In this document: positions 6,179 through 23,820 of the stretch, one piece after another
Position numbering within the stretch: the first letter of the stretch is position 1
How the letters are laid out: the number at the start of each line of letters is the position of its first letter
NCBI RefSeq assembly: GCF_003790525.1
Contig: NZ_CP033636.1
Source of the DNA: Escherichia coli
GTDB taxonomy: Bacteria > Pseudomonadota > Gammaproteobacteria > Enterobacterales > Enterobacteriaceae
Strand: one strand, 5' to 3'
DNA length: 64,000 nt
The notes under the pieces: generated by a model
Told to the model about the DNA's origin: nothing
The model's input: the letters and a program-made list of their open reading frames with translations, nothing else
Databases searched by the model: none
Translations under genes and position numbers: made by a program

Positions 6179-6182
6179 TCGA

Positions 6183-7850: not shown

Positions 7851-7872
7851 ATTTTACCCTTAGGGATGTGGA

Positions 7873-8328
7873 TCAGAGGCCAAATTCAGCCGGGTCGAAG
7901 CCCAACGCGATAGCGATCTCGCGGGAGGCCAGTTTCTCGTCCTGATCGAAGTTACCGTCACTTTTCGCAACGGCAATACCAACACGTAAGGCCAGCTGAG
8001 CGGCCTCAGGCTGATCTTTCAGCGCCAGGATGTATTTCATGGTTTCGCCCTTGCCGATTTCAACATCGAAATCGAAGCTTGAAACCAGTTTATTGAAGAA
8101 CTCAATCACCTCATTGGTATCGAAGACCTTCAGCTCTTCTGAAGAGCGCAGAAAGCCCATCATTTTCTGCTTTTCTTCCGAACTTACGCCGTCACTCGAT
8201 ACGGCAATACGGGCACATACAGCAACGGTGCCCTGCATGAATTTTTTGTTTTTGAAACGGCCAACCTGGCGGGTCAGTTCGTCACGGCCTGAGTTAATGG
8301 CACCTTTAACTTTGTCGAAAAAGCTCAT
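7873..8328 (-). CDS. terB: TerB tellurite resistance protein
   Basis: 151 aa from the internal ATG at 8328 (AGGA SD); MSFFDKVKGAINSGRDELTRQ...; the track ORF extends 20 codons upstream. Confidence 0.8.
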   Translation of the reverse strand: MSFFDKVKGAINSGRDELTRQVGRFKNKKFMQGTVAVCARIAVSSDGVSSEEKQKMMGFLRSSEELKVFDTNEVIEFFNKLVSSFDFDVEIGKGETMKYILALKDQPEAAQLALRVGIAVAKSDGNFDQDEKLASREIAIALGFDPAEFGL

Positions 8329-8350
8329 ACCTGTTTCCTTTGTTGCTGTG

Positions 8351-10089: not shown

Positions 10090-10335
10090 GTTTTATTCCT
10101 TAAAATGGTAATGACCGAGACAATCAAAGGTATATTTAGTAACTGACGAAGAAAATCATATCATGATGAAGTTCTCTGACAAGGGAAATTTTGGTAGTTT
10201 TCTTCAAAAACACAAAAATAAATCCTTTTCATGGTGTTCATTTTTCTATTTTTAATTTAAATATCAATACGTTATAAGGTACTAAAAAAACACTGACGCA
10301 CTCCATAACCACTGAAGTTATTAATCATATTATGA

Positions 10336-10364
10336 TTGACATGTAGCGTAGACACTCATAGACT
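10336..10364 (+). promoter_or_regulatory. Candidate sigma70 promoter for the plus-strand ter-associated biosynthetic operon
   Basis: TTGACA (10336-10341), 17-bp spacer, TAGACT (10359-10364), in the AT-rich divergent intergenic region between terZ and the ATP-grasp gene. Confidence 0.35.
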
Positions 10365-10411: not shown

Positions 10412-11470
10412 ATGAACAAGAAAATTTGGTTTATGGAAGGTTTGTCCTCCCAGCGAGATATTATTCAGGGGGTAAAATCATTTGCACAAAAAAATAATTT
10501 TGCTATTACCGTATTTGCCTCCCACCGTAACGAAAGACATGAAATTCTTTCCGTTGCCGATTATTCTTTGACTGAACCTGAAGATCCTCAAAAACGTCTT
10601 CAGTTTATTCAGGAAACCATTCAGACCTACGGCATCCACCATATTCATACTGGCCGTAACAGCCAGTGGTTTGAAGAACACCGTTCAGCCATTGAATCGA
10701 CCGGAGCCACCCTTACTACCGGTGCAACAGGCGTCGACTGGTTAACTCTGGCTGACGAAAAAGTTACTTTTGCTCAGTTTATGGAGCAAAACGGGCTCCC
10801 GGTCGTACCGTCCTGGCGGGTGAATACGCTGGCAGAATTAAAGACGCACCTCGCGGCCCCGCCGTTCTCGGACAGCCCGGTATGCGTGAAGCCGGTGACG
10901 GGTATCTATGGCATGGGATTCTGGCGCTTTGATGACAGTGCTTCGCCCATGGCCGTCTTTAATCATCCCGAACATCGTCTGGTCAGTCCGCAACAGTATA
11001 TTGCAGCAGCATCGGCTTCTGAGTCGTTTAAACCCCTTGTTTTGATGCCGTACCTGCCAGGCCCGGAATTTTCCGTCGATATCCTCGCGGATAAGGGCGA
11101 AATACTCGCAGCCGTGGGACGCCGTAAGGAAGGGGCTATCCAGTATCTGGTAAACGAAGGAAGCGCCTGGGAACTGGCTTGTGACTGCGCCCGGGTTATG
11201 AAGGCCGACGGGCTGGTGAATGTTCAGACGCGAAACGATGTGAATGGCAACCCGGTGCTGCTTGAAACCAACATGCGTCCGTCAGGCGGGGTGGGTTATA
11301 CCCTTCACAGCGGGGTGAACCTTCCCGGGTTGTTTGCTGCCTTTAAGCTCGGTCTGATGTCTGAAGATGCGGTGATCCAGAGCGCCAGAAATACCTTTTC
11401 TCCGGTTGCAGTGAGATCCATCACAGATGTCATCGTTTACCCGGAATCACTCTCTAACCATCTGAATTAA
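10412..11470 (+). CDS. ATP-grasp family protein (ter-associated biosynthetic module)
   Basis: 352 aa; ATP-grasp-like fold pattern; gene order matches the ter-linked biosynthetic operon described in comparative genomics. Confidence 0.7.
   Translation: MNKKIWFMEGLSSQRDIIQGVKSFAQKNNFAITVFASHRNERHEILSVADYSLTEPEDPQKRLQFIQETIQTYGIHHIHTGRNSQWFEEHRSAIESTGATLTTGATGVDWLTLADEKVTFAQFMEQNGLPVVPSWRVNTLAELKTHLAAPPFSDSPVCVKPVTGIYGMGFWRFDDSASPMAVFNHPEHRLVSPQQYIAAASASESFKPLVLMPYLPGPEFSVDILADKGEILAAVGRRKEGAIQYLVNEGSAWELACDCARVMKADGLVNVQTRNDVNGNPVLLETNMRPSGGVGYTLHSGVNLPGLFAAFKLGLMSEDAVIQSARNTFSPVAVRSITDVIVYPESLSNHLN
10760..10770. repeat. AAAGTWACTTT palindrome copy 2 (inside ATP-grasp CDS, encodes K-V-T-F)
   Basis: Exact match cgaAAAAGTTACTTTTgc. 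Confidence 0.9.
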
Positions 11471-11473
11471 GGC

Positions 11474-12622
11474 GTGTTTATGTCTGATACCCTCGAAGAT
11501 ATGATTTATCGCCGTACCCTCTCATGCGGTACGATACAGGTAACCCGCGACCAGGGTGATGTTTCGCTCGATGACCTGTTTGATATCGCTGAAAGACGTA
11601 ACCCGAAACGCGCCTTTCTGTTTGTCAGCAAAGTACTCGGCAGGCACATTCCCGTGCCACCCTCAGTCATGCGGCAGGCCTACAGACAGCTTGCCAGCCA
11701 GTTCCCCGCAACGCTGACAGGGCCCGTACTTTTTATCGGTATGGCTGAAACCGCCGTTGGGCTAGGGGCCGGTGTGTTTGATGAAGTGCGCCACCAGCAT
11801 CGTGAATCTGTCTATCTGACCTCTACCCGTCACCCGGTTGATGGCACGTTACTTTGCGAGTTCAAGGAAGAACACAGCCACGCCACCGATCATCTGATCT
11901 ATCTGCCAGATGATGAAGAGAAAAGACGTCGTGTTACCAACGCACGAACGCTGGTTTTGATTGATGACGAGGCAACCACCGGTAATACCTTTATTAACCT
12001 GCTTTCTGCCCTGCGTAATACCGGCAAGCTTCAACATATTGAACAGGTTATCGCCGTTACGCTTACCGACTGGAGTAGCAACGCCCTGTCGGAGCGCACA
12101 TCCTTGCCCGTCACTTCGGTTTCGCTTGTAAGCGGTCAGTGGGGATGGACCCCATTACCTGATGCACCTGTCCCGGACATGCCGAAAGTCAACGTAACTT
12201 CACGCGGAGAATGGGACATCCTGGGAAAACAGTCCTGGGGTCGACTGGGGATGCTCGCACCTGCGGCCGATCTCGGCCATGAGGTCTCCGTCCGCAAGGG
12301 GGAACGTATTCTGGTTCTCGGGACCGGGGAATTCGTCTGGGAGCCGTTCCTGCTTGCTGAACGGCTCGAAGCTGCCGGAGCACAGGCACTTTATGGTTCG
12401 ACCACCCGCTCCCCTATCGCCGTTGGTTATGCCATTGAGTCCGCCATTTCCTTTACGGATAACTACGGGCTGGGCATCCCCAATTTTGTCTATAACGTCG
12501 CCCACCAGCAGTTTGACCGTATTCTTGTGTGTACTGAGACACCCGCAGAAAGTATTGACACGCAGCTTCTTAAAGCCCTGGCTGAGGTTGCGCCCGTCGT
12601 GGAGATTGTTACCTATGAATAA
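11474..12622 (+). CDS. Phosphoribosyltransferase (PRTase)-type protein with C-terminal extension (ter-associated)
   Basis: 382 aa; PRTase PRPP-binding-like motif TLVLIDDEATTGNT; stop overlaps the next start (ATGAATAA). Confidence 0.7.
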   Translation: MFMSDTLEDMIYRRTLSCGTIQVTRDQGDVSLDDLFDIAERRNPKRAFLFVSKVLGRHIPVPPSVMRQAYRQLASQFPATLTGPVLFIGMAETAVGLGAGVFDEVRHQHRESVYLTSTRHPVDGTLLCEFKEEHSHATDHLIYLPDDEEKRRRVTNARTLVLIDDEATTGNTFINLLSALRNTGKLQHIEQVIAVTLTDWSSNALSERTSLPVTSVSLVSGQWGWTPLPDAPVPDMPKVNVTSRGEWDILGKQSWGRLGMLAPAADLGHEVSVRKGERILVLGTGEFVWEPFLLAERLEAAGAQALYGSTTRSPIAVGYAIESAISFTDNYGLGIPNFVYNVAHQQFDRILVCTETPAESIDTQLLKALAEVAPVVEIVTYE

Positions 12623-13388
12623 ACCCGTTGTTCTGAGCGACCTTGACGACACGCTCTTTCAGACCCGTCGTAAAATGGTGGACGAGCTGGCCCTGGAGCC
12701 ATTCCGTACCGGTGCCGTTGATCGCACCCTGAATCCACGAAGCTTTATGACGGAAGAACAGTCCATGTTGGTGGACTGGCTCCTGGAGCAGGCTGAACTC
12801 ATACCTGTTACCGCCCGGGGAACTGAAGAAATCAGCCGCGTCCGGATCCCTTTCCACTCCTGGGCAATCACCACGCACGGGGCCGTCATTCTCACGCCTG
12901 AAGGCAAACCCGACGAGGAGTGGAAGGCCCATATGCTTGGCCAGCTGGCTCCCTACCAGGAAAAGCTGACATCGATGCAGCGTCTGATCACTGAAATGAT
13001 GGACGCAAAAGGGATCAATGCCTGGGCAAGGCTGAACTTCGAATACGGTGAAACGGCGGTTTATATGGTGATGAAGCACCGCGACAGCACCCGCCTTGAC
13101 GAGCTCAATGCCATTGCAGATGAGATAGAAACGGTGTTTCCGACCGAGGGCTTCTACATCCACCGCAACAGTAATAACGTGGCCTGGCTTCCCACCCCGG
13201 TTGAGAAAGGGCTGGCCGTCAGATGGCTGCTTGAAAAACTTCGGGCTGAACGCGGAGTCTTCCCCGTAATTGGCCTGGGCGACAGCCTGAGCGATCATCG
13301 TTTTATGAAACTGTGCAGCTGGTTTGGCATCCCGCGTCAGAGTCAGTTTGCAGATGCCATTTCACAGCGAATTTTTGGAGAAAATTAA
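12615..13388 (+). CDS. HAD-superfamily hydrolase/phosphatase (ter-associated)
   Basis: 257 aa from ATG 12615; HAD motif I VLSDLDDTLF at the N-terminus; the track ORF from 12279 is an upstream extension overlapping the PRTase gene. Confidence 0.7.
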   Translation: MNKPVVLSDLDDTLFQTRRKMVDELALEPFRTGAVDRTLNPRSFMTEEQSMLVDWLLEQAELIPVTARGTEEISRVRIPFHSWAITTHGAVILTPEGKPDEEWKAHMLGQLAPYQEKLTSMQRLITEMMDAKGINAWARLNFEYGETAVYMVMKHRDSTRLDELNAIADEIETVFPTEGFYIHRNSNNVAWLPTPVEKGLAVRWLLEKLRAERGVFPVIGLGDSLSDHRFMKLCSWFGIPRQSQFADAISQRIFGEN

Positions 13389-13389
13389 A

Positions 13390-14469
13390 ATGCAGCCACA
13401 TGACACATTTACCGGCTCATACCAGCCCGGTGACGTGGAATTTCTGCTAAAGCCGGTTGTCATTGAGATGACGCCGGTTGAGCAAAAAGAAGAGCTGATT
13501 CAGTCAGGGAAGAAACATTATTCGGACATGCTCAGTCAGGAGCCAGCGCCAACACAATGGCATCTTGATTTGTTTCACCGGGCGCTGGATCGGGGCGCAG
13601 AGAGACTTGCAAAAGAAGTCACACAGCTCGCTATTGCTCTGGCCAAACGCTTTGGTGATGAGCCCATTGTACTGGCCAGTCTTGTCAGGGCTGGCGTGCC
13701 GCTCGGCGTTATGCTGCACCAGGCCCTGCGTGACATGGGGAAAACCTCATGGCATTACGGTATCAGCATTATCCGGGATCGTGGAATTGACGGTGCAGCC
13801 CTCGACGTCATTGAAGAGCGGCATGGTACCAGCGGTATTGTCTTTGTTGACGGATGGACAGGTAAAGGCGCAATTACCGGAGAGCTTGTACGCGCACTGA
13901 AAGATCGCCCGGGCTATCCTGAGCAGCCGCGACTGGTTGTCCTGGCCGATCCCTGTGGCTGCTCCTGGCTTGCAGCCAGTGATGATGACTGGCTCATTCC
14001 TTTTGGCATCATGGGTGCGCCGGTGTCAGGCCTGATCTCCCGGTCAGTGTGGTCCTCTGAAGGATTACACGGGTGCATGGTTTGCGAGCATCTCAGTGAA
14101 TTCGAATGCAGCCGGATGCTTGTCGATACCGTCGCTCATTTCCGTAAGAAGTTAACCCCGTCATCCCTCGCTCCCCTGAGCTGGAATACGGAGTCAGCCC
14201 GGATCTTATGGCAGACAAGTCGCGACGTTATCGCGTTCCTGGCCGATGAATTTAAAGTGGACAGCGTCAATCGTATAAAACCCGGTATTGCTGAAGCAAC
14301 CCGGGCTGTATTACGTCGGGTACCGGACCATGTATTTGTGCGTTCTATTGACGACCCGGACGTTGCCTTGCTTGTAGGGCTTGCTCGTGAAAAGGGAATA
14401 GTTGTTACAGAAATGGGGGGAACCCTCGGCCAGTATCGGGCTGTAACCATTATCAAGAAGGTACTTTGA
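13390..14469 (+). CDS. ter-associated protein with PRTase-like segment and conserved cysteines (possibly StiP-like)
   Basis: 359 aa from ATG 13390; segment GIVFVDGWTGKGAITGEL resembles a PRTase nucleotide-binding loop; CGCSW and CMVCEH cysteine clusters; exact family not certain. Confidence 0.5.
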   Translation: MQPHDTFTGSYQPGDVEFLLKPVVIEMTPVEQKEELIQSGKKHYSDMLSQEPAPTQWHLDLFHRALDRGAERLAKEVTQLAIALAKRFGDEPIVLASLVRAGVPLGVMLHQALRDMGKTSWHYGISIIRDRGIDGAALDVIEERHGTSGIVFVDGWTGKGAITGELVRALKDRPGYPEQPRLVVLADPCGCSWLAASDDDWLIPFGIMGAPVSGLISRSVWSSEGLHGCMVCEHLSEFECSRMLVDTVAHFRKKLTPSSLAPLSWNTESARILWQTSRDVIAFLADEFKVDSVNRIKPGIAEATRAVLRRVPDHVFVRSIDDPDVALLVGLAREKGIVVTEMGGTLGQYRAVTIIKKVL

Positions 14470-15425
14470 TGAAAAATCGTCTTTCTCCCTGGAATCTGGG
14501 AGCCACGCTATACATGCCTGCAACACGGGAAGATATTGCTGATGCCGTCCTGCACGGGAAAATCCCGGGTTTGCGCTCTCTGGTGATTTGCCTGGAGGAT
14601 GCTGTCAGTGAAGCAGACATCCCCGTCGCCCTCAAAAATCTGGAGCACCTGCTGCACGAGCTCAGTAACAGCATGCATAGCCTGGGTAAAAATGACTGGC
14701 CTCTGGTGTTCATTCGCCCCCGGCATGCCGAAATGGGCAGATGGTTAAAAGCGCATTATGATCTTTCCGCTGTCGACGGGTTTGTGTTGCCGAAATTTAC
14801 CCTCAGTTCGTTAGCTGAATGGTGGGATATCATGGGCGGGACTCACCTGTGCATGATGCCAACGCTGGAAACAGAAGACGTCTTTGACGTGGTTCAGATG
14901 CGGGAGCTGGCCACCCGTCTGGTGGAACATCCCTGCCACGACCGCATTATTGCGCTTCGAATCGGCGGCAACGATCTTATGAACGTTGTGTCGCTTCGCC
15001 GTCCCCGGGACCTGACGCTGTATGACAGCCCGATGGGCTACGTCATCAAAATGCTCGTTTCGGTCTTCGGCCCGCGTGATTTTGCCCTGACCGCGCCCGT
15101 ATGTGAGCATATTGACGATCATGCCGTAATGGCCAGAGAGCTGGCTCTTGATATGGCACATGGGCTTGTTGGGAAAACGGCCATTCACCCGGGTCAGATA
15201 GAGGTCATTCAAAACGCGCTGATGGTCACTCAGGGTGAGCATTCTGACGCTCTGCGGATCCTGAACTCTACCCAGGCCGTGTTTAAGTCGCAGGGAGCAA
15301 TGTGTGAACCCGCCACACATCGCCGCTGGGCGGCTGGCATTCTGGACAGAGCTCGTTTTTATGGGTTACAGAACGAGCAAAGCGCTGATGGAATCAGATT
15401 ACTTACCGTGACCCAGCATCATTAA
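14469..15425 (+). CDS. HpcH/HpaI aldolase / citrate-lyase beta-like TIM-barrel protein (ter-associated)
   Basis: 318 aa; motif VICLEDAVSEADIP; ATG overlaps the upstream stop (TGATG); AAGAAGG SD. Confidence 0.65.
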   Translation: MKNRLSPWNLGATLYMPATREDIADAVLHGKIPGLRSLVICLEDAVSEADIPVALKNLEHLLHELSNSMHSLGKNDWPLVFIRPRHAEMGRWLKAHYDLSAVDGFVLPKFTLSSLAEWWDIMGGTHLCMMPTLETEDVFDVVQMRELATRLVEHPCHDRIIALRIGGNDLMNVVSLRRPRDLTLYDSPMGYVIKMLVSVFGPRDFALTAPVCEHIDDHAVMARELALDMAHGLVGKTAIHPGQIEVIQNALMVTQGEHSDALRILNSTQAVFKSQGAMCEPATHRRWAAGILDRARFYGLQNEQSADGIRLLTVTQHH

Positions 15426-15435
15426 GGAAATCATA

Positions 15436-16644
15436 ATGGGGTTCAGATTCAGAAAGTCGATCAACATTATTCCTGGTGTTCGCCTCAACCTGAGTAACGG
15501 TGCACCGAGCCTGAGTGTCGGGCCGAGAGGTGCTTCCGTTTCTTTTGGAAGCCGGGGGACCTATGCCAATCTGGGCTTGCCCGGTACCGGGCTGAGTTAC
15601 CGTACCCGGCTTGATCGGGCCGCGCGTTCCGGAGGTGGGAACCGGACGGCTACCGACCCGGGGCTCAGACAGGCGCTTGAGGAGGAAGCCGCTGATCTCA
15701 TGTCAGCGGTGACCGCAATCCGTAATATTCACGAGCTGACGCCGGATCCTAAAACAGGCATCAGCTGGGCAGAGCTGGAAGCAGTATACCTGCATAACAG
15801 AACGTCGCCTTTTCAGGTTCCGGCACCGGTGCGTCCAGAAAAGCCAGACTATCTTGCATTGCCGGAAAAGCCTGCCGAGAGCGAAGGCATTAGTTTTCTG
15901 GGTAAATGGTTTGAATCGGAATCAGCTAAAGCTGAGCGCCACGCCGAAAATCTTCGCCGGTGGCAGCAGGAGCTGATTGATGTGGAGCGTGAGAATACCC
16001 TTCGACAGCACCGGTACCAGCAACAACGGACGGCCTGGGCCGAACAGTATGCAAACTGGAAGTTTGAGGCTGAAGAACATGAAAAACGGCTCGCCACGGC
16101 TCAGGCAGATGCCCGGCAGCAGTTCCGGACAGACGCCGCGTTTTTCGAATCATACCTGGCGGGTGTGCTGGCAGAAACTGAATGGCCGCGTGAAACGCTT
16201 GTTGCATTTGAAGTAAAGCCGGAGCTATCAGCAGTCCTGCTGGATGTTGATTTAGCTGAGATTGAAGATTTCCCTGATAAGATTTACGGCGTTAATGCCC
16301 GGGGCACGGAGCTGACGGAAAAAGCCATGACGCAAAAAGCCGTACGCGAAAACTATGCCCGCCACGTCCATGGCTGCTTGTTCCGCCTGGTCGGTATCGT
16401 TTTACATACGCTACCGTTCGACAACGTGATTGTGTCAGGCTTTACGCAACGGGTCAGTAAGCGGACCGGCTATCTGGAGGATGAGTATATCCTGTCCTGC
16501 AAATGCAGTCGCAGCCAGATGTCGTCAGTAAATTTTGCAGGCTTAGAACACATTGATCCGGTTGAAGCGTTAGGCGATCACCCGGTTATTCGAAAGATGA
16601 GCAGTACCTTCATTTTTCAGCCTATTGAACCACTAACCCTTTAA
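15436..16644 (+). CDS. DUF4236-like protein
   Basis: 402 aa; N-terminus MGFRFRKSINIIPGVRLNLSNGAPSLSVGPRGASVSFG resembles the DUF4236 signature; remainder charged and helical. Confidence 0.55.
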   Translation: MGFRFRKSINIIPGVRLNLSNGAPSLSVGPRGASVSFGSRGTYANLGLPGTGLSYRTRLDRAARSGGGNRTATDPGLRQALEEEAADLMSAVTAIRNIHELTPDPKTGISWAELEAVYLHNRTSPFQVPAPVRPEKPDYLALPEKPAESEGISFLGKWFESESAKAERHAENLRRWQQELIDVERENTLRQHRYQQQRTAWAEQYANWKFEAEEHEKRLATAQADARQQFRTDAAFFESYLAGVLAETEWPRETLVAFEVKPELSAVLLDVDLAEIEDFPDKIYGVNARGTELTEKAMTQKAVRENYARHVHGCLFRLVGIVLHTLPFDNVIVSGFTQRVSKRTGYLEDEYILSCKCSRSQMSSVNFAGLEHIDPVEALGDHPVIRKMSSTFIFQPIEPLTL

Positions 16645-16661
16645 GCAGGCTAAATCTTACG

Positions 16662-17129
16662 ATGCAATTAAATACCAGACAGGCCCGGATTTTTAAGCTT
16701 GCCAACTTACTGGGCACCGGCAAGCCCGTTTCCGCTGCCGACATTATAACCAGTCTGGAATGCTCAGAGCCGACATTAACCCGGGCACTCAAAGAGCTAC
16801 GCGAGTCATATTCTGCGGAGATCAAATACAGCAAGGCAGGTCATTCCTACCATCTCGTTAATCCGGGCCAGCTGGATAAAAAGACCCTTCGCCGGATGAA
16901 TGAAGCGCTCGCACAGAATGCTGAACTGAAAACCGGTGAGTCCACAGGGAAGGTCGTACTCGATAAGGATAAAAAAACAGCCGTGTCATTATCGCTACGC
17001 ATGCGGATTTTAAGAAAAATTGACCGTCTGGCTGCGCTGAGTGGCTCGACCCGAAGTGAAGCGGTAGAGAAGCTGGCTCTGCACTCCGTTGATGAACTGA
17101 TAAAAGAATACAGCGCTAAAAAGTCCTGA
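16662..17129 (+). CDS. terW: TerW-like DNA-binding protein
   Basis: 155 aa; size and position (just upstream of the terY/terX module) match terW; HTH-like segment SAADIITSLECSEPTLTRALKEL. Confidence 0.7.
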   Translation: MQLNTRQARIFKLANLLGTGKPVSAADIITSLECSEPTLTRALKELRESYSAEIKYSKAGHSYHLVNPGQLDKKTLRRMNEALAQNAELKTGESTGKVVLDKDKKTAVSLSLRMRILRKIDRLAALSGSTRSEAVEKLALHSVDELIKEYSAKKS

Positions 17130-17142
17130 CGCTAAATCTCAG

Positions 17143-17168
17143 ACCGGGGTGAAAACCCCGGTTTTGTC
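17143..17168 (+). terminator. Rho-independent terminator after terW
   Basis: ACCGGGGT-GAAA-ACCCCGGT hairpin followed by TTTGTC, 14 nt after the terW stop. Confidence 0.6.
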
Positions 17169-17591
17169 ATATTTCACCTCTGTATCTGCGTGACGGAGTT
17201 TTGATCTATTCTCCTCCCGCAATGTCAGCAGCGCCTTTCTGCCTACAAAACCTGGTGTCTTGACATCCTCTTGTGCTACACATCAATCTTTGGGCGATTT
17301 ACACTCCATTCATGCAGATCTGTGATGTATGATGATTTTCATACATAAGAAAGTTTATTTTTGCCGGAGTTTTTTTCAGAAATTTATATTCCAGTACGGT
17401 CTGAATTTTTTTCTCTGATAAGAGGCCATTCACATGTCGGTAATTCAATGGTGGTTAACTTATTTCTTTAATGCCGCTTCTGAGTATTTAATCTCCACCC
17501 GACAGATGTCGTGCCGTTTTATCAAATCTACAAACTCTGGCCTCTTCCTGAAACTACTCTCCTCTTCCGATCTCTTAAGAAGGAATTACAT

Positions 17592-18230
17592 TTGAGACGC
17601 TTACCCGTATATCTGCTACTCGACACGTCCGGCTCTATGCACGGAGAGCCTATCGAAGCGGTTAAGAATGGCGTTCAGACGCTGCTTACCACGCTGAAAC
17701 AGGATCCGTATGCACTCGAAACGGCTTACGTGTCAGTGATCACCTTTGATTCTTCAGCCCGACAGGCAGTCCCCCTGACAGACCTCCTGAGTTTCCAGAT
17801 GCCAGCACTAACAGCCAGCGGCACCACCTCTCTTGGCGAAGCGCTTTCCCTCACGGCCAGCTCCATTGCCAAAGAAGTACAGAAAACGACGGCTGACACT
17901 AAAGGTGACTGGCGTCCCCTTGTATTCCTGATGACGGATGGAAGTCCGAATGATGACTGGCGTAAAGGCCTGAATGACTTTAAAGCGGCCAGAACCGGCG
18001 TTGTTGTGGCATGTGCAGCCGGGCATGATGCCGATACCAGCGTCCTCAAAGAAATCACTGAAATCGTGGTTCAGCTCGATACAGCTGACAGTTCGACGAT
18101 TAAAGCTTTCTTTAAATGGGTCAGTGCGAGCATTTCGGTAGGCAGTCAGAAAGTGGAGTCCAGCAAAAAAGAAGTGATCGGTCTTGAAGACCTGCCACCG
18201 CCGCCGCCAGAAGTAAACGTGGTCTTATAA
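17592..18230 (+). CDS. terY: TerY-like vWA domain protein
   Basis: vWA MIDAS motif LLLDTSGSM...LMTDGSPND; proposed TTG start at 17592 preceded by AAGGA, in the same context (AGGAATTACAT) as the next terY paralogue; the track ORF starts at ATG 17511 without an SD. Confidence 0.65.
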   Translation: MRRLPVYLLLDTSGSMHGEPIEAVKNGVQTLLTTLKQDPYALETAYVSVITFDSSARQAVPLTDLLSFQMPALTASGTTSLGEALSLTASSIAKEVQKTTADTKGDWRPLVFLMTDGSPNDDWRKGLNDFKAARTGVVVACAAGHDADTSVLKEITEIVVQLDTADSSTIKAFFKWVSASISVGSQKVESSKKEVIGLEDLPPPPPEVNVVL

Positions 18231-18252
18231 TTTTATTAATTAAGGGGATGTC

Positions 18253-18894
18253 ATGTCTGTCAGTCTGAGCAAAGGCCAGGGCGTAAGCCTGAAAAAAAAT
18301 GAATACGATCTCTCGTCCGTTACTATCGGCCTGGGTTGGGATATTAATGAGGAAAAGAAAGGTTTCCTCGGCGGGATCTTTGGTAAAAAAGAAGAAGAAT
18401 ACGACCTTGATGTGATCGCTTTCCTGTGTAATTCAGCCGGAAAGGTGACCGATCTCGGCAATGTGGAAAATGGTAAACCAACGCTTGTGAATGGCGATAT
18501 CATCTTTTTCAACAGCCTTCGCCATAAGTCAGGAAATATCTGGCTGACGGGCGATAACCGAACCGGAGCCGGTGATGGTGACGATGAGCAAATTATTGTG
18601 CGCCTGAATTCCCTTGACGCTCAGTACGAGAAAATTGTGTTCATCGTTCAGATCTACAATGGTGAAAAGCTCCAGCAGCACTTTGGTAAAGTTCAGAATG
18701 CCTTCATCCGGGCAGTAGATGCCCGTAATATTGAAATGGCACGATTCGATCTTTCTGGCGGACCCGCCTTCGCCAGCCAGCGCTCCATGGTTTTTGCCGA
18801 GCTGATACGCGAGGCTACAGGCTGGAAACTCAGGGCAATTGGTGAGCCTTCAGAATCAGATTCGTTTGTCTCGCACCTGAGGAATTACATGTGA
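18253..18894 (+). CDS. terX: TerX-like TerD-domain protein
   Basis: 213 aa; [15 protein letters not shown]...GDNRTGAGDGDDE TerD-family pattern; AAGGGGA SD. Confidence 0.8.
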   Translation: MSVSLSKGQGVSLKKNEYDLSSVTIGLGWDINEEKKGFLGGIFGKKEEEYDLDVIAFLCNSAGKVTDLGNVENGKPTLVNGDIIFFNSLRHKSGNIWLTGDNRTGAGDGDDEQIIVRLNSLDAQYEKIVFIVQIYNGEKLQQHFGKVQNAFIRAVDARNIEMARFDLSGGPAFASQRSMVFAELIREATGWKLRAIGEPSESDSFVSHLRNYM

Positions 18895-19532
18895 TGCGCC
18901 GCCTGCCTGTTTACCTTGTTATCGACACATCCGGCTCGATGCGCGGTGAGTCCATCCATTCCGTTAACGTTGGAATTCAGGCGATGCTTAGCGCTCTTCG
19001 CCAGGATCCCTACGCCCTCGAAAGCGTTCATATCTCCATTATCACCTATGACAATGAGGCGCGTGAGTTCATTCCTCTCACGCCGCTGGAAGACTTCCAG
19101 TTTTCTGACATCGTTGTGCCAAGCGCAGGCGGGACGTTCACCGGTGCTGCCCTTGAATGTCTGATGCAGTGTGTTGAACGGGATGTACGTCGCTCAGATG
19201 GTGATACAAAAGGAGACTGGCGTCCTCTGGTATTCCTGATGACTGATGGAACCCCTTCTGATGCCCTGGCGTACGGTGAAGCGGTAAAAGCGATTCGCGG
19301 CCGGGGATTCGGATCCATCATTGCCTGCGCCGTTGGTCCTAAAGCAGGCCATGAGCACTTAAAACAGCTCACCGATAAGGTTGTGTCTCTGGAGACGCTA
19401 GATTCAACCGCGTTTGCAGGTTTCTTTAAATGGGTATCGGCCAGCGTGTCTTCCGGCAGCACAAGCGCGGGGATCAATAACGGAACTGATACCCTTCCCC
19501 CTCCTCCACCAGAAATCCAGCTGGTGCTCTGA
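18894..19532 (+). CDS. terY: TerY-like vWA domain protein (second copy)
   Basis: MRRLPVYLVIDTSGSMRGE...LMTDGTPSD; ATG overlaps the terX stop (TGATG). Confidence 0.7.
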   Translation: MRRLPVYLVIDTSGSMRGESIHSVNVGIQAMLSALRQDPYALESVHISIITYDNEAREFIPLTPLEDFQFSDIVVPSAGGTFTGAALECLMQCVERDVRRSDGDTKGDWRPLVFLMTDGTPSDALAYGEAVKAIRGRGFGSIIACAVGPKAGHEHLKQLTDKVVSLETLDSTAFAGFFKWVSASVSSGSTSAGINNGTDTLPPPPPEIQLVL

Positions 19533-19535
19533 CAG

Positions 19536-19572
19536 ACAGAAAGGTGCTGCTTTCCGGGCAGCACCTTTCTGT
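19536..19572 (+). other. Perfect 15-bp-stem hairpin between two terY genes (intercistronic RNA structure)
   Basis: ACAGAAAGGTGCTGC-TTTCCGG-GCAGCACCTTTCTGT; no U-run follows, so not a canonical intrinsic terminator. Confidence 0.6.
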
Positions 19573-19617
19573 ACAGCAACGTTTTCTGCTGGCCGTACCA
19601 GCCGTACGAGGAAAATT

Positions 19618-20658
19618 ATGAGACGCCTTCCCGTGTTTTTTGTCCTGGACTGTTCAGAGTCCATGATTGGTGAAAACCTGAAAAAAATGACTGATGGTCT
19701 GCAAATGATCATCGGAGATTTAAGAAAGGATCCACACGCACTTGAAACAGCCTGGGTTTCGGTAATCGCATTTGCCGGTGTAGCCCGTACGATTGTACCT
19801 CTTCACGAAATTGCCTCGTTCTACCCTCCCCGCCTTCCCGTTGGCGGCGGTACGAGCCTTGGGGCCGCATTGCGTGAGCTGACCGTACAAATTGATACCC
19901 AGGTCAGAAAAACCACTCATGAGGCTAAAGGCGACTGGAAACCCGTCGTGTATCTCCTTACCGACGGACGTCCGACTGACGACACAACCGCAGAAGTGAA
20001 GCGCTGGAAGGATCACTACGCGAGTAAAGTGAATCTCATTGCCGTTGGCCTGGGGCCGTCAGCGGACCTGAATACCCTGCGGCAACTGACAGAGAATGTC
20101 ATGCTGTTCACCGAGTCTCAGGAAGGGGACTTTACCCGCTTCATCAAATGGATCACAGCCTCGGTTACGGCGCACAGCCGCAGCGTCGGAGACGACAAAC
20201 AACCTGAGCTCAGCCAGACTGAATACATAGTCCGGCTGGCCAAGGACGAGCCAGTAAAAGCGTACGACGAAAACTGCGTTACGCTTACCGGCCGTTGCAG
20301 CAAGACCCGTCGTCCGTATCTGATGAAGTATGAACGGCCACCAGCAAGGATTTCCGGGCTCGATTTCAGCCTGAACCTGAACAGCTTTAATATTGCCGGA
20401 TGCTATCCCATCGATGAAGACTATTTTGCATGGTCAGATGCCACCGCTACCGGTTTGCAGGTAAACACCAGCGAACTGCATGGCGTACCGGGTTGCCCTC
20501 ACTGCGGTAATGCCAGTGCGTTTGCCCTGTGCTCATGCGGAAAATTGCTGTGCATTGACGGCCCGGATGACGTGATCTGCCCGTGGTGTGAAACAGGTCT
20601 GTCATTCAGCAATGATGGCGGAAACACTAACTTCGACGTAAACAGAGGGAGAGGTTGA
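19618..20658 (+). CDS. terY: TerY-like vWA protein with C-terminal cysteine-rich zinc-ribbon-like domain
   Basis: 346 aa from ATG 19618; MRRLPVFFVLDCSESM...LLTDGRPTDD; C-terminal CPHCGN...CSCGKLLC...CPWCE; the track ORF from 19414 is an in-frame upstream extension across the hairpin. Confidence 0.7.
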   Translation: MRRLPVFFVLDCSESMIGENLKKMTDGLQMIIGDLRKDPHALETAWVSVIAFAGVARTIVPLHEIASFYPPRLPVGGGTSLGAALRELTVQIDTQVRKTTHEAKGDWKPVVYLLTDGRPTDDTTAEVKRWKDHYASKVNLIAVGLGPSADLNTLRQLTENVMLFTESQEGDFTRFIKWITASVTAHSRSVGDDKQPELSQTEYIVRLAKDEPVKAYDENCVTLTGRCSKTRRPYLMKYERPPARISGLDFSLNLNSFNIAGCYPIDEDYFAWSDATATGLQVNTSELHGVPGCPHCGNASAFALCSCGKLLCIDGPDDVICPWCETGLSFSNDGGNTNFDVNRGRG

Positions 20659-22295
20659 TGTCGCAAAATGTTTTACTTGAAGAGAAGATTATCCGCTTAG
20701 TGCTGTCTGAGCTGGGCCACCCTGTAGAAGGTGAGCGGCTTTTTCTTCTATCGCACGACCCTTCCCTTACTGAAGAGATTATGCGGCTTAAAGAGCGGAT
20801 TGAGAGCCTTGCACAGGGTTTATCTGCGCGGGTTAGCGAAGGTTATAACGACGCAGAGATCGCCCCCTCGTCAGCATCCAGCCTTTCCGATCAGCAACAA
20901 ACGGTCGTAAGTGATGCTGATAACCCGGGCATTGACGCTACCGATACACCATTACTGCAACCCCTGCCAGAAAATGAACCTCATCCTCCGTTCTGGAAGC
21001 TGATGCCTTATTACGAATTTGATAAACCAGCACAGAGGGAAGACGAAAACCTGTCTTCCCTGGTATTAAAACCCGGGCAGATACCGACAGGCCAGCAGCG
21101 GGCCGGATTAGCTGTGCCACCTGCCGTTCCCCCGAGAGCTAAAATAGTTATTCCCAACGCCCGCGCAGGCGAACGTTTCTCTTCGCCGGTTGCTATAGTT
21201 CTGGATGAGGGCCAGCAGGCTACTGTCAGGGACGTTGTCTTTCCCAGGAACATTGGCCTGACCTTTGACAAAGAGCATAAGTTGCTGACAGGTACACCCA
21301 CCGAAAGCGGCGATATAGAGCTTTCAGTACTCTGGTCATGCGCTTCGCACGACGAATGCGAAACAAAACAGCTTTTTATAGTCAATCCCGATCCGAGAAG
21401 CCTGTGGAAGGTGGTAGAGCCACCAGCAGACGCTTCCTACCCTAAGTCCCATCTGGACGCTGCTGGCCTGGTCAGGGGTGACATACGTATTGCTGCCGCC
21501 AGTCGCCGGGGACGATCTCATGAGCATGCCGGGAGCTTCAGAGATGACGACTTCTATATCAACCACTGCCAGGAAACAGGATGGTCTGTCATGCTGGTCG
21601 CAGACGGGGCCGGTAGTGCGGTAAATTCCCGGGAAGGCTCCCGGATTGCAGTCCAAACGGCTGGCGATTACCTTTTCAATCAGCTCAGTGGTTTGAAAGG
21701 CGTCCATCTAAAGCAGCACATCACGGCGTGGGAAGGGAGCGATCAGCAGGCAACCATAAACGCCATGCTTCATCATTTTAAACAGGCAGCTACGCTCGCG
21801 GTCAACAGTATCCAGAACGAAGCCATTTGTGCAGAACAACCTGTGAAATCCTATTCAACAACCCTACTGGCAACTGTAGCGCTACGAACTGATAACGAGC
21901 TGTTTGCGGCTGCATTCTGGCTTGGTGATGGTGCGATAGGTGCATACAGCCCTTCCGGTAAAGTCAGGATACTGGGAAATCCCGATAGCGGAGAATACGC
22001 AGGACAAACCCGCTTTCTTGACCAGAGCATTATCGCAGACCCCTCGTTTAGCGGCCGCATCAGCGTGGGTAAATGGAATGATGTATCTCACTTGATCCTC
22101 ATGACAGATGGCGTATCAGACCCTCTGTTTGAGACAGATAACGGGCTTCGCAGTGACGAAAAATGGACCCGTCTCCTTGATGAGCTCATCCCTGTCCTTA
22201 CAGACGCCAGTATTGCGCCTGAGAGGTTAGGCGACTGGCTTAACTTTTTCTCCACAGGGAACCACGATGACCGCACTATTGCGGTGTTGTGGTAA
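20655..22295 (+). CDS. PP2C-family Ser/Thr protein phosphatase (ter-associated)
   Basis: 546 aa; PP2C-like motifs (RGRSHEHAGSFRDDDF, LVADGAGS, LMTDGVSD); GGGAGAGG SD; ATGA overlap with the upstream stop. Confidence 0.75.
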   Translation: MMSQNVLLEEKIIRLVLSELGHPVEGERLFLLSHDPSLTEEIMRLKERIESLAQGLSARVSEGYNDAEIAPSSASSLSDQQQTVVSDADNPGIDATDTPLLQPLPENEPHPPFWKLMPYYEFDKPAQREDENLSSLVLKPGQIPTGQQRAGLAVPPAVPPRAKIVIPNARAGERFSSPVAIVLDEGQQATVRDVVFPRNIGLTFDKEHKLLTGTPTESGDIELSVLWSCASHDECETKQLFIVNPDPRSLWKVVEPPADASYPKSHLDAAGLVRGDIRIAAASRRGRSHEHAGSFRDDDFYINHCQETGWSVMLVADGAGSAVNSREGSRIAVQTAGDYLFNQLSGLKGVHLKQHITAWEGSDQQATINAMLHHFKQAATLAVNSIQNEAICAEQPVKSYSTTLLATVALRTDNELFAAAFWLGDGAIGAYSPSGKVRILGNPDSGEYAGQTRFLDQSIIADPSFSGRISVGKWNDVSHLILMTDGVSDPLFETDNGLRSDEKWTRLLDELIPVLTDASIAPERLGDWLNFFSTGNHDDRTIAVLW

Positions 22296-22320
22296 GGGAT
22301 ACGCTTCTTCGGTGATCAAT

Positions 22321-23820
22321 ATGGCAAATATTGTTACGTGCAAAACAAAGGACGGCGAAACAGTCCAGTATGTTGACGAGGTAATTGGTTCGGGCTCGAT
22401 GAAGGATGTTTACTTCTCGCCTGATAAATCATACGTCGTCGCTTTTTATCATAAACCGCAGAACGAGCAGGCCCGGGATCGGATTGATATGATCACCGGA
22501 CGCTACAGGCAAAACATTTTTGGCCAGTCCGGAGGTGAATACTGGAAGGACCTGTTTTGCTGGCCGACCCACGTTGTTGAGCATGGGGATAAAATCGGCA
22601 TCGTGGTTCCAACCTACAAAAGCTACTTTTTCTTTAAATACGGCTCTAAAAACGATGATTTTCTTGGCATAAAAGGCCGTGAAAAGGAAGGCAAATGGTT
22701 TGCCAGCGCCAGCAACCAGAATAAATTTCTCGACCCACGTGAACGAGGCAATACGCTTACCTATCTCAAGGTCTGTCTGCTGCTAACAAGAGCCGTCAGA
22801 AGGATGCATGCGGCAGGTCTCTGTCACAGCGATCTAAGCTATAAAAACGTGCTTATCGATCCAGAAATGGGACATGCCTGCATCATTGACGTAGACGGCC
22901 TGGTTGTCCCTGGAAAGTATCCTCCCGACGTCGTGGGCACCCCGGATTTTATCGCTCCGGAAGTGGTGAAAACCAGCCATCTTTCCAAAGAGGATCCGAA
23001 CCGCGTATTGCCAAGCATTTCTACTGACCGTCATGCGCTGTCGGTGCTTATCTACATGTATCTGTTCTTCCGTCATCCGCTACGTGGCGGAAAAATACAT
23101 GACATGTCGGATGAAGTACGTGATGAGACCTTATCTATGGGTGAGAAGGCACTCTTCATTGAACATCCGACAGACAAAAGCAATGCAGTCAAAGTCAGTC
23201 AGCTATCCTCCTTTTCACTGCCCTGGGCTGACCCGGAGAAAATTCCTTACACCATCATGGGCCCTTATTTGACGCCTTTGTTTGAACGCGCCTTTATTGA
23301 TGGCTTACACGATGCCAATAAACGCCCGACCGCCGATGAGTGGGAAAGTGCCCTGGTTAAAACAGTCGATCTGATACAGCCCTGCCAGAACAAGGCGTGT
23401 GAACAGAAATGGTACGTTTTCTCAGGTAAGACAAAGCCGGTTTGTCCCTACTGCGGTACGCCATACAAGGGTAAATTACCGGTTCTAAATTTATATTCAT
23501 CCCGAAAGGAAGGCAGTTATCGTCCTGACGACCACCGGTTGATGGTGTGGAGCGGGCAGTCAATCTATGCGTGGCATGTGAATCGCCTCATTGCGCCAAA
23601 TGAGCGCACAACCGATGCACAAAGGAAACGAGTTGGGTATTTTGTTTTCCATAACGATCAGTGGTGGTTAGTAAATGAAGGCATAAATGGGCTTATGTCA
23701 TTACCGGATAAACGACAGATTGCCATTGGGGAAAAAATTGAACTGACGAATAACGCTCAGTTTGTTCTGTCAAAGGAGGAAGGCGGCAGGCTGGTCGTCG
23801 TTCAGTTAGTTGAAAACTAA
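22321..23820 (+). CDS. Ser/Thr protein kinase with C-terminal zinc-ribbon (ter-associated)
   Basis: Kinase catalytic-loop-like HSDLSYKNVLID and IIDVDG; C-terminal CQNKACEQ...CPYCG; start taken at ATG 22321, track ORF starts at 22267. Confidence 0.7.
   Translation: MANIVTCKTKDGETVQYVDEVIGSGSMKDVYFSPDKSYVVAFYHKPQNEQARDRIDMITGRYRQNIFGQSGGEYWKDLFCWPTHVVEHGDKIGIVVPTYKSYFFFKYGSKNDDFLGIKGREKEGKWFASASNQNKFLDPRERGNTLTYLKVCLLLTRAVRRMHAAGLCHSDLSYKNVLIDPEMGHACIIDVDGLVVPGKYPPDVVGTPDFIAPEVVKTSHLSKEDPNRVLPSISTDRHALSVLIYMYLFFRHPLRGGKIHDMSDEVRDETLSMGEKALFIEHPTDKSNAVKVSQLSSFSLPWADPEKIPYTIMGPYLTPLFERAFIDGLHDANKRPTADEWESALVKTVDLIQPCQNKACEQKWYVFSGKTKPVCPYCGTPYKGKLPVLNLYSSRKEGSYRPDDHRLMVWSGQSIYAWHVNRLIAPNERTTDAQRKRVGYFVFHNDQWWLVNEGINGLMSLPDKRQIAIGEKIELTNNAQFVLSKEEGGRLVVVQLVEN

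What the first reader, a model, noticed from the sequence alone, without database searches (positions are those of the whole stretch)
10412..23820. Ter-associated biosynthetic operon and vWA/TerD/PP2C/kinase module present in full
ATP-grasp, two PRTase-like proteins, HAD phosphatase and HpcH-like aldolase are followed by terW, three TerY-type vWA genes, terX, a PP2C phosphatase and a Ser/Thr kinase. As I recall, comparative-genomics work from the Aravind group (around 2012) predicted that such neighbourhoods synthesise a nucleoside-like metabolite and signal through the kinase/phosphatase/vWA proteins. To my knowledge the product and targets remain undetermined, and ter loci on IncHI2-type plasmids have long been linked to phage-inhibition and colicin-resistance phenotypes.
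Basis: partly seen in the sequence, partly recalled or inferred. Interest (0 to 1): 0.55.

Follow-up and report, generated by a model that had tools for sequence, protein, structure and literature searches.

The report
Known IncHI2 plasmid ter accessory genes
The region holds the already-described accessory genes of the tellurite-resistance (ter) locus of IncHI2 resistance plasmids: a putative nucleoside-making enzyme operon and a separate vWA/phosphatase/kinase cassette, all intact, correctly recognised, and still of unknown function.

Summary
Window 10412-23820 carries 13 intact + strand genes whose Pfam families are those defined for Ter-associated systems. The window differs at 2 of 64000 bases from IncHI2 plasmid pEC6622-1, and the same 14 kb is present in over 1200 sequenced plasmids.

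- A 402-aa DUF4236 gene (15436-16644) was omitted.
- The gene order is terY1-terX-terY2-terY3.
- RefSeq names the second "PRTase" a "StiP cysteine protease". No cysteine is conserved in the family, but PRTase-type loop motifs are invariant.
- The region is two units, not one. A strong terminator follows terW. Shiga-toxin E. coli islands keep only the first unit, and distant proteobacteria carry the second as a free-standing six-gene cassette.

New small details:
- Twin conserved palindromic boxes lie over the divergent terZ/ATP-grasp promoters.
- TerY1 and TerY2 share a conserved polyproline tail.
- The PP2C carries an Ig-like domain, and the kinase a zinc ribbon plus a beta-rich domain.
- mcr-1 transposons have knocked out the kinase or PP2C in field plasmids.

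The interpretation restates a 2012 comparative-genomics prediction that papers up to 2025 still treat as untested. Tellurite resistance is already known not to need this region. Verdict: real, ordinary, already known.

The parts
3870..10089 (-). Context: terZABCDE plus terF (vWA), the tellurite/phage/colicin resistance operon, divergent from the finding
   Evidence: RefSeq annotation of the near-identical plasmid (locus = window + 2001)
10154..10168 (.). Palindromic box 1 (AATCATATCATGATG), overlapping the -10 of the terZ-side promoter-like site; candidate operator
   Evidence: 5 hits with up to 2 mismatches against 0.53 expected; perfectly conserved island in a locus 73% identical overall
10323..10337 (.). 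Palindromic box 2 (AATCATATTATGATT), abutting the -35 TTGACA of the ATP-grasp-side promoter-like site (10336-10364)
10412..11470 (+). ATP-grasp enzyme (ATPgrasp_Ter), 352 aa
   Evidence: Pfam PF15632, E 2.7e-37; E-x-N Mg site present
11480..12622 (+). PRTase_2 plus TRSP protein, 380 aa; PRPP loop VLIDDEATTGNT
   Evidence: Pfam 1.5e-63 and 5.1e-23; sequence
12615..13388 (+). HAD-IIB-like phosphatase, 257 aa
   Evidence: TIGR01486, E 3.6e-9, below cutoff; DLDDT and GDSLSD motifs
13390..14469 (+). StiP (former PRTase_1) domain plus L7Ae/PELOTA-like domain, 359 aa
   Evidence: Pfam; profile hit to L7Ae/Snu13, E 2e-4; invariant SLxRAGxPxG and DGWTGKG motifs and no conserved Cys
14469..15425 (+). 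HpcH/CitE-like TIM-barrel C-C lyase, 318 aa
   Evidence: Pfam PF15617, E 9.3e-114; NCBIfam RipC/CitE weak hits
15436..16644 (+).
16662..17129 (+). terW: winged-HTH plus ribbon-helix-helix regulator, 155 aa
   Evidence: RefSeq name; weak HTH_11, RHH_1 and WYL-HTH hits; reported regulator of terZ-E
17141..17175 (+). Intrinsic terminator (10-bp stem, 6 G-C pairs, T-run) ending the first transcription unit
   Evidence: homology with O157 islands stops at about 17193
17592..18230 (+). terY1: vWA with MIDAS DTSGS, TTG start, C-terminal LPPPPPEVNVVL tail
   Evidence: 32% identical to E. coli YegL, E 1e-24
18253..18894 (+). terX: TerD-family protein with GDNRTG...GDGDDE motifs
   Evidence: Pfam TerD 6.5e-52; sequence
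18894..19532 (+). terY2: vWA with MIDAS and LPPPPPEIQLVL tail
19618..20658 (+). terY3: vWA plus cysteine-rich TerY_C domain
   Evidence: Pfam TerY_C 4.5e-53
20658..22295 (+). PP2C phosphatase, 545 aa: helical N-terminus, fast-evolving disordered linker (about 20-160), Ig/cadherin-like module (about 165-245), PP2C_2 (284-529)
   Evidence: (SraP cadherin-like modules, E 4.6e-7)
22321..23820 (+). Hanks-type Ser/Thr kinase, 499 aa, with C-terminal Cys4 zinc ribbon (C355/C360/C375/C378) and a beta-rich domain (about 386-497)

Best explanation
This is the accessory half of the R478/IncHI2-type ter locus. It consists of two separate transcription units next to terZABCDEF.

**Unit 1 (10412-17129, seven tightly packed genes)**
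- It encodes five enzymes: ATP-grasp ligase, PRTase_2-TRSP, HAD-IIB phosphatase, PRTase_1/StiP fused to an L7Ae-like RNA-binding domain, and a CitE/HpcH-like lyase. It also encodes a DUF4236 protein and the regulator TerW.
- Inferred chemistry: a PRTase joins a base to PRPP, the HAD enzyme removes the 5' phosphate, and the ATP-grasp and lyase enzymes decorate the product. The result would be a modified ribonucleoside acting as a diffusible signal or effector for the TerD/TerB/TerC membrane complex.
- Inferred regulation: TerW feeds back on both divergent promoters through two conserved palindromic boxes.

**Unit 2 (17592-23820)**
- It is an old, self-contained six-gene cassette: vWA, TerD, vWA, vWA-TerY_C, PP2C, kinase.
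- Inferred action: a Ser/Thr kinase and PP2C phosphatase reversibly switch an assembly of metal-binding vWA and Ca-binding TerD proteins, as proposed for TerY-P triads.

**Shown versus inferred**
- Shown here: gene content, intact catalytic motifs, purifying selection, modularity, identity with known plasmids.
- Inferred: the metabolite, the signalling logic, and any role in phage or plasmid conflict.
For: **Identity**
- The window has 2 mismatches in 64 kb to pEC6622-1 and IncHI2 transfer genes downstream.
- 1230 plasmid records carry at least 80% of the 14 kb.

**Domains and motifs**.

**Selection**: dN/dS is 0.02-0.41 for all 13 genes.

**Two units**
- A strong terminator lies at 17141-17164.
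- O157 islands keep unit 1 at 97.6% identity and lose unit 2 at an IS66 junction.
- Unit 2 is found in the same gene order in Thiorhodococcus without unit 1. In a betaproteobacterium it sits beside a different HAD plus 2x PRTase_3 set.
- The kinase is 65-68% identical across these classes.

**Operator boxes**.

**Relatives with biochemistry**: YegL is 32% identical to TerY1 (E 1e-24). PphC and YegI are weak matches (E about 1e-5). YegI and PphC are active enzymes in vitro.

**Literature model**.
Against: - No product, substrate or target has been shown for any of these proteins.
- The one experimental paper on a StiP homologue calls it a protease.
- No solved structure matches StiP or PRTase_2-TRSP by sequence.
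- Tellurite resistance does not need either unit.
- No PADLOC defence model, including its TerY model, matches the vWA or PP2C proteins.
- The box-TerW link is inferred only from position and conservation.
- The kinase model is poor in the catalytic core (pLDDT 64).
Confidence: 0.55

Rival explanations
1. Unit 2 is a stand-alone anti-phage (or anti-plasmid) defence system of the TerY-P kind. It would be functionally independent of the biosynthetic operon and of tellurite resistance, and sits here only because defence genes cluster on mobile elements.
For: - The cassette travels alone in Thiorhodococcus and is lost or kept independently of unit 1.
- TerY-P-like triads with a kinase-OB fusion protected against phage in Gao et al. 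2020, as reported.
- A TerD gene is embedded in the cassette, and in distant genomes a TerD gene (and in one of them TerC) lies directly upstream. The cassette therefore carries its own Ter link.
Against: - PADLOC's TerY and other TerY-P models do not match these proteins.
- The architecture differs: three vWA proteins plus TerD, and a kinase with a zinc ribbon plus an unassigned beta domain.
- Plasmids with mcr-1 insertions in the kinase or PP2C genes have been isolated from the field.
- In a betaproteobacterium the cassette is flanked by TerC-TerD and by HAD/PRTase genes, which argues for a functional tie to Ter and nucleoside genes.
Confidence: 0.25
2. The region's role is to protect the host from the toxicity of the terZABC products and to tune their expression. 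It would be a regulatory or antidote region with no product of its own that matters outside the ter system.
For: - The title of Whelan et al. 1997 states that a region of R478 protects E. coli from toxic effects of components of the resistance cluster (reference listed).
- TerW is reported to regulate terZ-E.
- Twin conserved boxes lie over both divergent promoters.
- Constructs with more of terW/terY/terX gave better survival under tellurite.
Against: - Five conserved enzymes with intact active-site motifs under purifying selection are hard to explain as a mere antidote.
- terZ-F alone is tolerated and functional in K-12.
- O157 islands live without terY/terX.
Confidence: 0.12
3. The StiP protein is a protease, as its database name says. 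Unit 1 would then act on proteins or the cell envelope (morphology, stationary-phase survival) rather than making a nucleoside.
For: Reichert et al. [quoted passage not shown] RefSeq and Pfam use the same name.
Against: - Among 39 homologues at 34-53% identity no cysteine is invariant. The best, C229, is present in 74% and is replaced by Ala, Val or Gly in the rest.
- The invariant residues form SLxRAGxPxG and hhhhDGWTGKG, which resemble the PPi and PRPP loops of type I PRTases (the comparison with PRTase loops is from my knowledge of the family).
- The neighbours are a PRTase, a HAD phosphatase and an ATP-grasp enzyme.
Confidence: 0.08

Closest known systems
ter locus of IncHI2 plasmid R478 and its relatives (K. 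pneumoniae virulence plasmids of the pK2044 type; O157:H7 tellurite-resistance island)
   Same: - The same genes in the same order.
- 100% nucleotide identity to many IncHI2 plasmids.
- The same 13-gene layout at about 73% identity in a K. pneumoniae virulence plasmid.
- The literature already uses the nomenclature terW, terY1, terX, terY2, terY3.
   Different: Nothing of substance. This copy is complete, whereas O157 islands stop after terW and some IncHI2 plasmids have mcr-1 insertions in the PP2C or kinase genes.
Ter-associated five-enzyme biosynthetic module and TerY-P triad as defined by Anantharaman, Iyer and Aravind 2012
   Same: Every defining Pfam family is present (ATPgrasp_Ter, PRTase_2, TRSP, PF11202, PELOTA_1, C-C_Bond_Lyase, TerY_C, PP2C_2, kinase with zinc ribbon).
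   Different: The paper itself could not be read here. DUF4236 and TerW are extra members of the operon, and the 'triad' here is a six-gene cassette with three vWA genes and a TerD gene.
E. coli K-12 yegL-pphC-yegI (vWA, PP2C phosphatase, Ser/Thr kinase)
   Same: - Same three protein types in one cluster.
- YegL is 32% identical to TerY1 (E 1e-24).
- The kinase alignment runs through the C-lobe into a CxxC element.
- YegI and PphC are enzymatically active in vitro.
   Different: - PphC and YegI are only weakly similar to the proteins here (E about 1e-5).
- YegI is a two-pass membrane protein of 648 aa.
- PphC (253 aa) lacks the N-terminal linker and Ig-like module.
- The cluster has a single vWA without the polyproline tail, no TerD and no TerY_C.
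TerY-P anti-phage system (Gao et al. 2020; PADLOC model 'TerY')
   Same: vWA plus PP2C plus Ser/Thr kinase encoded together.
   Different: No PADLOC model matches the vWA or PP2C proteins here. The kinase there carries an OB fold where this one has a zinc ribbon followed by an unassigned beta domain. No defence phenotype is known for this cassette.

Membership tests
Ter-associated biosynthetic module (five-enzyme form) | ATP-grasp of the ATPgrasp_Ter family | tested here: met
   PF15632, E 2.7e-37
Ter-associated biosynthetic module (five-enzyme form) | PRTase_2 with C-terminal TRSP domain and an intact PRPP loop | tested here: met
   PF15609 1.5e-63, PF12500 5.1e-23; VLIDDEATTGNT
Ter-associated biosynthetic module (five-enzyme form) | HAD-superfamily phosphatase with catalytic motifs | tested here: met
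   HAD-IIB profiles below cutoff (E 3.6e-9), but DLDDT and GDSLSD are present
Ter-associated biosynthetic module (five-enzyme form) | Second PRTase (PF11202) fused to a PELOTA/L7Ae-like domain | tested here: inconclusive
   PF11202 4.9e-89, PELOTA_1 4.6e-25 and an L7Ae hit, E 2e-4. The PRTase fold is supported only by invariant RAG and DGWTGKG loops; no PRTase hit in Pfam or PDB.
Ter-associated biosynthetic module (five-enzyme form) | TIM-barrel C-C bond lyase | tested here: met
   PF15617, E 9.3e-114
Ter-associated biosynthetic module (five-enzyme form) | Encoded next to terZABCDE/TerD-TerC genes | tested here: met
   Divergent from terZ across a 322-bp spacer
Ter-associated biosynthetic module (five-enzyme form) | Makes a nucleoside-like metabolite | not testable with these tools
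   Prediction only; papers up to 2025 still call it unknown
TerY-P triad (vWA / PP2C / Ser-Thr kinase) | TerY-type vWA with a MIDAS motif | tested here: met
   Three VWA proteins with DxSxS: DTSGS, DTSGS, DCSES
TerY-P triad (vWA / PP2C / Ser-Thr kinase) | PP2C phosphatase with metal-binding aspartates | tested here: met
   PP2C_2 1.8e-46; ADGAGS, TDGVSD and DDRT motifs
TerY-P triad (vWA / PP2C / Ser-Thr kinase) | Ser/Thr kinase with catalytic loop, DFG-equivalent and APE motifs, fused to a C-terminal zinc ribbon | tested here: met
   HSDLSYKN, DVDG and GTPDFIAPE; four invariant Cys in 35 homologues; kinase fold hits
TerY-P anti-phage defence system (Gao 2020 / PADLOC) | Match to the curated defence-system models | tested here: not met
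   No PADLOC hit for the vWA or PP2C proteins even at E 10. The PADLOC TerY model exists and weakly hits YegL.
TerY-P anti-phage defence system (Gao 2020 / PADLOC) | Kinase fused to an OB fold | tested here: inconclusive
   The beta-rich domain at 386-497 is confidently modelled, but no fold assignment was obtained
TerY-P anti-phage defence system (Gao 2020 / PADLOC) | Protects against phage when expressed | not testable with these tools
   No experiment found for this cassette
IncHI2 plasmid backbone | Near-identity to IncHI2 plasmids and linkage to IncHI transfer genes | tested here: met
Cysteine protease (database name of StiP) | Conserved catalytic cysteine | tested here: not met
   No invariant Cys in 39 homologues; the best is 74% conserved

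The most novel reading that the evidence does not exclude
Unit 1 makes a modified ribonucleoside, possibly built on or guided by an RNA bound by the L7Ae-like domain of StiP. This would serve as an alarm signal read by the TerD/TerB/TerC complex. Unit 2 would be a phosphorylation-gated vWA/TerD assembly whose TerY1 and TerY2 polyproline tails dock on the kinase or PP2C accessory domains. Together they would form a plasmid-borne, signal-based infection or exclusion response, with TerW autoregulating through the twin boxes.
Probability: 0.15. Interest if true: 0.7.

Novelty: already known. Interest (0 to 1): 0.28.

Why it matters
The ter locus is carried by about 18% of complete E. coli genomes searched here (958 of 5426) and by over a thousand resistance and virulence plasmids. 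It is used as a diagnostic marker, yet the job of these 13 genes is unknown.

If the enzymes make a signalling nucleoside and the kinase/phosphatase cassette is a switch, this would be a very common and unstudied bacterial signalling system on clinically important plasmids.

As a scan result it adds little. The locus, its domain content and the hypothesis have been in the literature since 2012. What this check adds is practical:
- the two units can be tested separately;
- natural kinase and PP2C knock-outs exist;
- there is a concrete candidate operator for TerW.

Tried and rejected
1. **PADLOC scan of all 13 proteins and the terZ-D proteins.** Only weak generic kinase and PRTase hits; no TerY-P hit.
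2. **Rfam scan of 9900-25300 at E up to 1.** No riboswitch or other RNA family.
3. **Conserved elements in the terW-terY1 spacer.** It is unalignable between the IncHI2 and Klebsiella types. A 53-aa ORF (17434-17595) with a Shine-Dalgarno site is absent from the Klebsiella type, so I treat it as spurious.
5. **Kinase C-terminal domain.** My guess of an FHA-like fold could not be tested, because Foldseek hits were all kinases and the PDB profile search found only zinc-ribbon-like matches. RefSeq's 'helix-hairpin-helix' name was not reproduced by Pfam.
6. **PP2C divergence.** It is the outlier gene (78.7% amino-acid identity to the Citrobacter plasmid copy, against 93-100% for the other genes). 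This looked like diversifying selection, but the changes are concentrated in the N-terminal part, mainly a disordered linker at about residues 20-160.
7. **Primary sources.** Anantharaman 2012, Whelan 1995 and Whelan 1997 could not be read; they are not held.
8. **StiP versus PRTase_2 pairwise BLAST.** No significant similarity.

Full report
**What is there**

Window 10412-23820 holds 13 + strand genes. The window differs at 2 of 64000 positions from E. coli plasmid pEC6622-1 (NZ_CP096588.1). Downstream it carries IncHI-type transfer genes (trhI, trhN, trhU, trhF, rsp, htdA, parM).

The 14-kb stretch is widespread:
- It is 100% identical in many Escherichia, Salmonella, Klebsiella and Enterobacter plasmids. 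1379 plasmid records match, and 1230 of them hold at least 80% of it.
- 958 of 5426 complete E. coli genomes have a match.

So this is the ter region of an IncHI2 plasmid, divergent from terZABCDE-terF at 3870-10089 on the minus strand.

**Gene by gene**

| Coordinates | Product | Evidence |
|---|---|---|
| 10412-11470 | ATP-grasp | ATPgrasp_Ter, E 2.7e-37 |
| 11480-12622 | PRTase_2 plus TRSP | PRPP loop VLIDDEATTGNT |
| 12615-13388 | HAD-IIB-like phosphatase | profiles below cutoff, but DLDDT and GDSLSD intact |
| 13390-14469 | StiP domain (residues 9-248) plus PELOTA_1 (277-357) | Pfam |
| 14469-15425 | C-C_Bond_Lyase | E 9.3e-114 |
| 16662-17129 | terW | RefSeq name |
| 17592-18230 | terY1 | vWA, TTG start |
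| 18253-18894 | terX | TerD family |
| 18894-19532 | terY2 | vWA |
| 19618-20658 | terY3 | vWA plus TerY_C |
| 20658-22295 | PP2C | PP2C_2 at residues 284-529 |
| 22321-23820 | Ser/Thr kinase | Pkinase |

Active-site motifs are intact throughout:
- MIDAS DxSxS in all three vWA proteins.
- GDNRTG/GDGDDE calcium sites in TerX.
- ADGAGS, TDGVSD and DDRT in the PP2C.
- HSDLSYKN, DVDG and GTPDFIAPE in the kinase.

Against a Citrobacter plasmid copy, an O157 chromosomal copy and a Raoultella copy, every gene shows dN/dS between 0.02 and 0.41.

**Two units, not one**

Genes from the ATP-grasp to terW are separated by -8 to +17 bases. Directly after terW lies a strong intrinsic terminator: a 10-bp stem with 6 G-C pairs and a T-run at 17141-17164. 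A 463-bp spacer follows.

- In Shiga-toxin E. coli chromosomes the homology covers query 1-7194, that is window 10000-17193. It then meets IS66 elements, so the whole terY1-to-kinase block is missing while the seven upstream genes stay intact under purifying selection.
- Conversely, the six-gene block vWA-TerD-vWA-vWA/TerY_C-PP2C-kinase occurs in the same order in Thiorhodococcus drewsii without any biosynthetic genes. In a betaproteobacterium it lies between TerC-TerD and a different HAD plus two PRTase_3 genes.
- The kinase is 65-68% identical over its full length in those organisms.

The second unit is thus an old, mobile cassette of its own.

1. *Candidate operator.*
   - The 322-bp divergent promoter region holds two copies of a palindrome, AATCATAT(C/T)ATGAT, at 10154-10168 and 10323-10337.
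   - One lies over the -10 of the terZ-side promoter-like site; the other abuts the -35 TTGACA of the ATP-grasp-side site.
   - Matches with up to 2 mismatches number 5 in the window against 0.53 expected.
   - In a locus only 73% identical overall, both boxes are perfectly conserved islands in an otherwise scrambled spacer.
   - TerW is reported to regulate terZ-E and is the obvious candidate binder. This is inference.
2. *Polyproline tails.* TerY1 and TerY2 end in LPPPPPE(V/I)(N/Q)(V/L)VL in Enterobacterales, Chromatiales and a betaproteobacterium. TerY3 and E. coli YegL lack the tail.
3. *PP2C architecture.* A helical N-terminus is followed by a fast-evolving disordered linker. That linker, at about residues 20-160, accounts for most of the gene's outlying divergence (78.7% identity). 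Next comes an Ig/cadherin-like module similar to those of the adhesin SraP (E 4.6e-7), then the PP2C domain.
4. *Kinase C-terminus.* The kinase carries four invariant cysteines forming a zinc ribbon, followed by a confidently modelled beta-rich domain that I could not assign. Pfam did not reproduce RefSeq's 'helix-hairpin-helix' label.
5. *DUF4236 protein.*
   - The gene keeps its position in the Klebsiella-type locus.
   - In Psychromonas it sits among TerD genes without the enzymes; elsewhere it stands alone.
   - The model is good (pLDDT 87.6), but no fold or function could be assigned.

**StiP: PRTase or protease?**

RefSeq and Pfam call the 13390-14469 product a cysteine protease. This follows a 2013 report that A. 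baylyi StiP is a protease needed for normal morphology and tellurite resistance (cited).

- In 39 homologues at 34-53% identity there is no invariant cysteine. The best is present in 74%.
- The invariant residues form SLxRAGxPxG and hhhhDGWTGKG. From my knowledge of type I PRTases, these resemble the PPi and PRPP loops.
- The C-terminal domain matches L7Ae/Snu13 RNA-binding proteins (E 2e-4).
- No PRTase was hit in Pfam or PDB, and I had no structure jobs left.

The PRTase reading is therefore likely but not proven here.

**Relation to known systems**

- The locus, its gene names (terW, terY1, terX, terY2, terY3) and its split into a 'putative biosynthetic cluster' and the ter operon are in the literature.
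- The model of a nucleoside-like product and a vWA/PP2C/kinase switch is that of Anantharaman et al. 2012, as summarised by later papers. I could not read the paper itself.
- The nearest biochemically studied relatives are E. coli K-12 YegL, PphC and YegI. YegL is 32% identical to TerY1 (E 1e-24); the other two match only weakly. YegI and PphC are active in vitro, with unknown substrates.
- TerY-P-like triads were shown to defend against phage (Gao 2020). PADLOC's models, including one named TerY, do not match these proteins, and the architecture differs. I do not file this cassette as a member of that defence system.

**Function**

Papers up to 2025 still state that the biosynthetic cluster's role is unknown.

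Phenotypes map elsewhere:
- terZ-F alone confers tellurite resistance on K-12.
- Phage inhibition, colicin and tellurite phenotypes map to terZ, terC, terD and terA.
- terC deletion in Klebsiella reduces phage, zinc and manganese resistance.

The second unit is dispensable:
- O157 strains lack it.
- Field IncHI2 plasmids carry Tn6330 (mcr-1) in the kinase gene, or an mcr-1 cassette in the PP2C gene.

So neither unit is required for tellurite resistance or plasmid survival.

My best explanation (confidence 0.55 overall; the components are near certain, the mechanism is inferred) is this. Unit 1 makes a modified ribonucleoside acting on the TerD/TerB/TerC complex under TerW feedback. Unit 2 is a phosphorylation-controlled vWA/TerD assembly.

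The rival explanations are:
- an independent defence cassette (0.25);
- a protective or regulatory region for ter toxicity (0.12);
- a protease-based envelope function (0.08).

**Verdict**

The finding is real and correctly read, but it is a re-identification of a well-documented locus with a 2012 hypothesis attached. Novelty: already known. Interest: 0.28. The open question is genuine and testable, but this window does not make it more so, beyond the practical leads listed above.

Noticed in passing
window 10154-10168 and 10323-10337: Two copies of the palindrome AATCATAT(C/T)ATGAT lie over the divergent terZ and ATP-grasp promoters. Both are perfectly conserved in a 73%-identical Klebsiella/Raoultella-type locus whose spacer is otherwise scrambled. 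They are a candidate operator pair, possibly for TerW.
   Followed up: partly
window 18192-18227 and 19494-19529 (C-termini of TerY1 and TerY2): A strictly conserved LPPPPPE(V/I)(N/Q)(V/L)VL tail is present in TerY1 and TerY2 orthologues from three proteobacterial orders. It is absent from TerY3 and YegL and could be a docking peptide.
   Followed up: partly
L016 (pCFS3273-1), equivalent to window about 22840; L015 (pHum4c), equivalent to window about 21364: The colistin-resistance transposon Tn6330 (ISApl1-mcr-1-pap2-ISApl1) is inserted in the kinase gene of one IncHI2 plasmid. An ISApl1-mcr-1-pap2 cassette truncates the PP2C gene in another. These are natural knock-outs of the signalling genes. 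The window itself has neither insertion.
   Followed up: partly
window 20715-21140 (PP2C residues about 20-160): This proline/glutamate/serine-rich linker evolves much faster than the rest of the locus (45-48% identity between residues 41 and 160, against 93-100% for the other genes, in a Citrobacter plasmid). Synonymous divergence also varies from 0.007 to 0.51 between adjacent genes, which suggests recombination within the locus.
   Followed up: partly
window 17434-17595: A 53-aa ORF with a Shine-Dalgarno site has a stop codon overlapping the TTG start of terY1. It is absent from the Klebsiella-type locus, so it is probably not a gene.
   Followed up: yes
window 23987-25069 (- strand): A 360-aa hypothetical protein directly downstream of the kinase gene. 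Its Cys-rich N-terminus is probably the source of the single CoiA_N (competence protein CoiA) Pfam hit obtained when all 14 proteins were scanned together; that hit was not assigned to a protein. Function unknown and not part of the operon.
   Followed up: no
window 39286-43930 (- strand): A cluster of an ATP-binding protein, a DUF3150 protein and a 670-aa vWA protein in the IncHI2 backbone. This is another ATPase/vWA set on the same plasmid.
   Followed up: no
window 25430-29167: An Hha/YmoA-family regulator, a tyrosine recombinase and a Tus-like 'replication terminus site-binding protein' are annotated just downstream of the ter region.
   Followed up: no
L007 11515-13917 (betaproteobacterial contig): Here the terY-to-kinase cassette is followed by a HAD hydrolase and two PRTase_3 genes. 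This is a different, smaller nucleoside-type module from the one in the window, and it suggests a repeated association between the cassette and PRTase/HAD genes.
   Followed up: no
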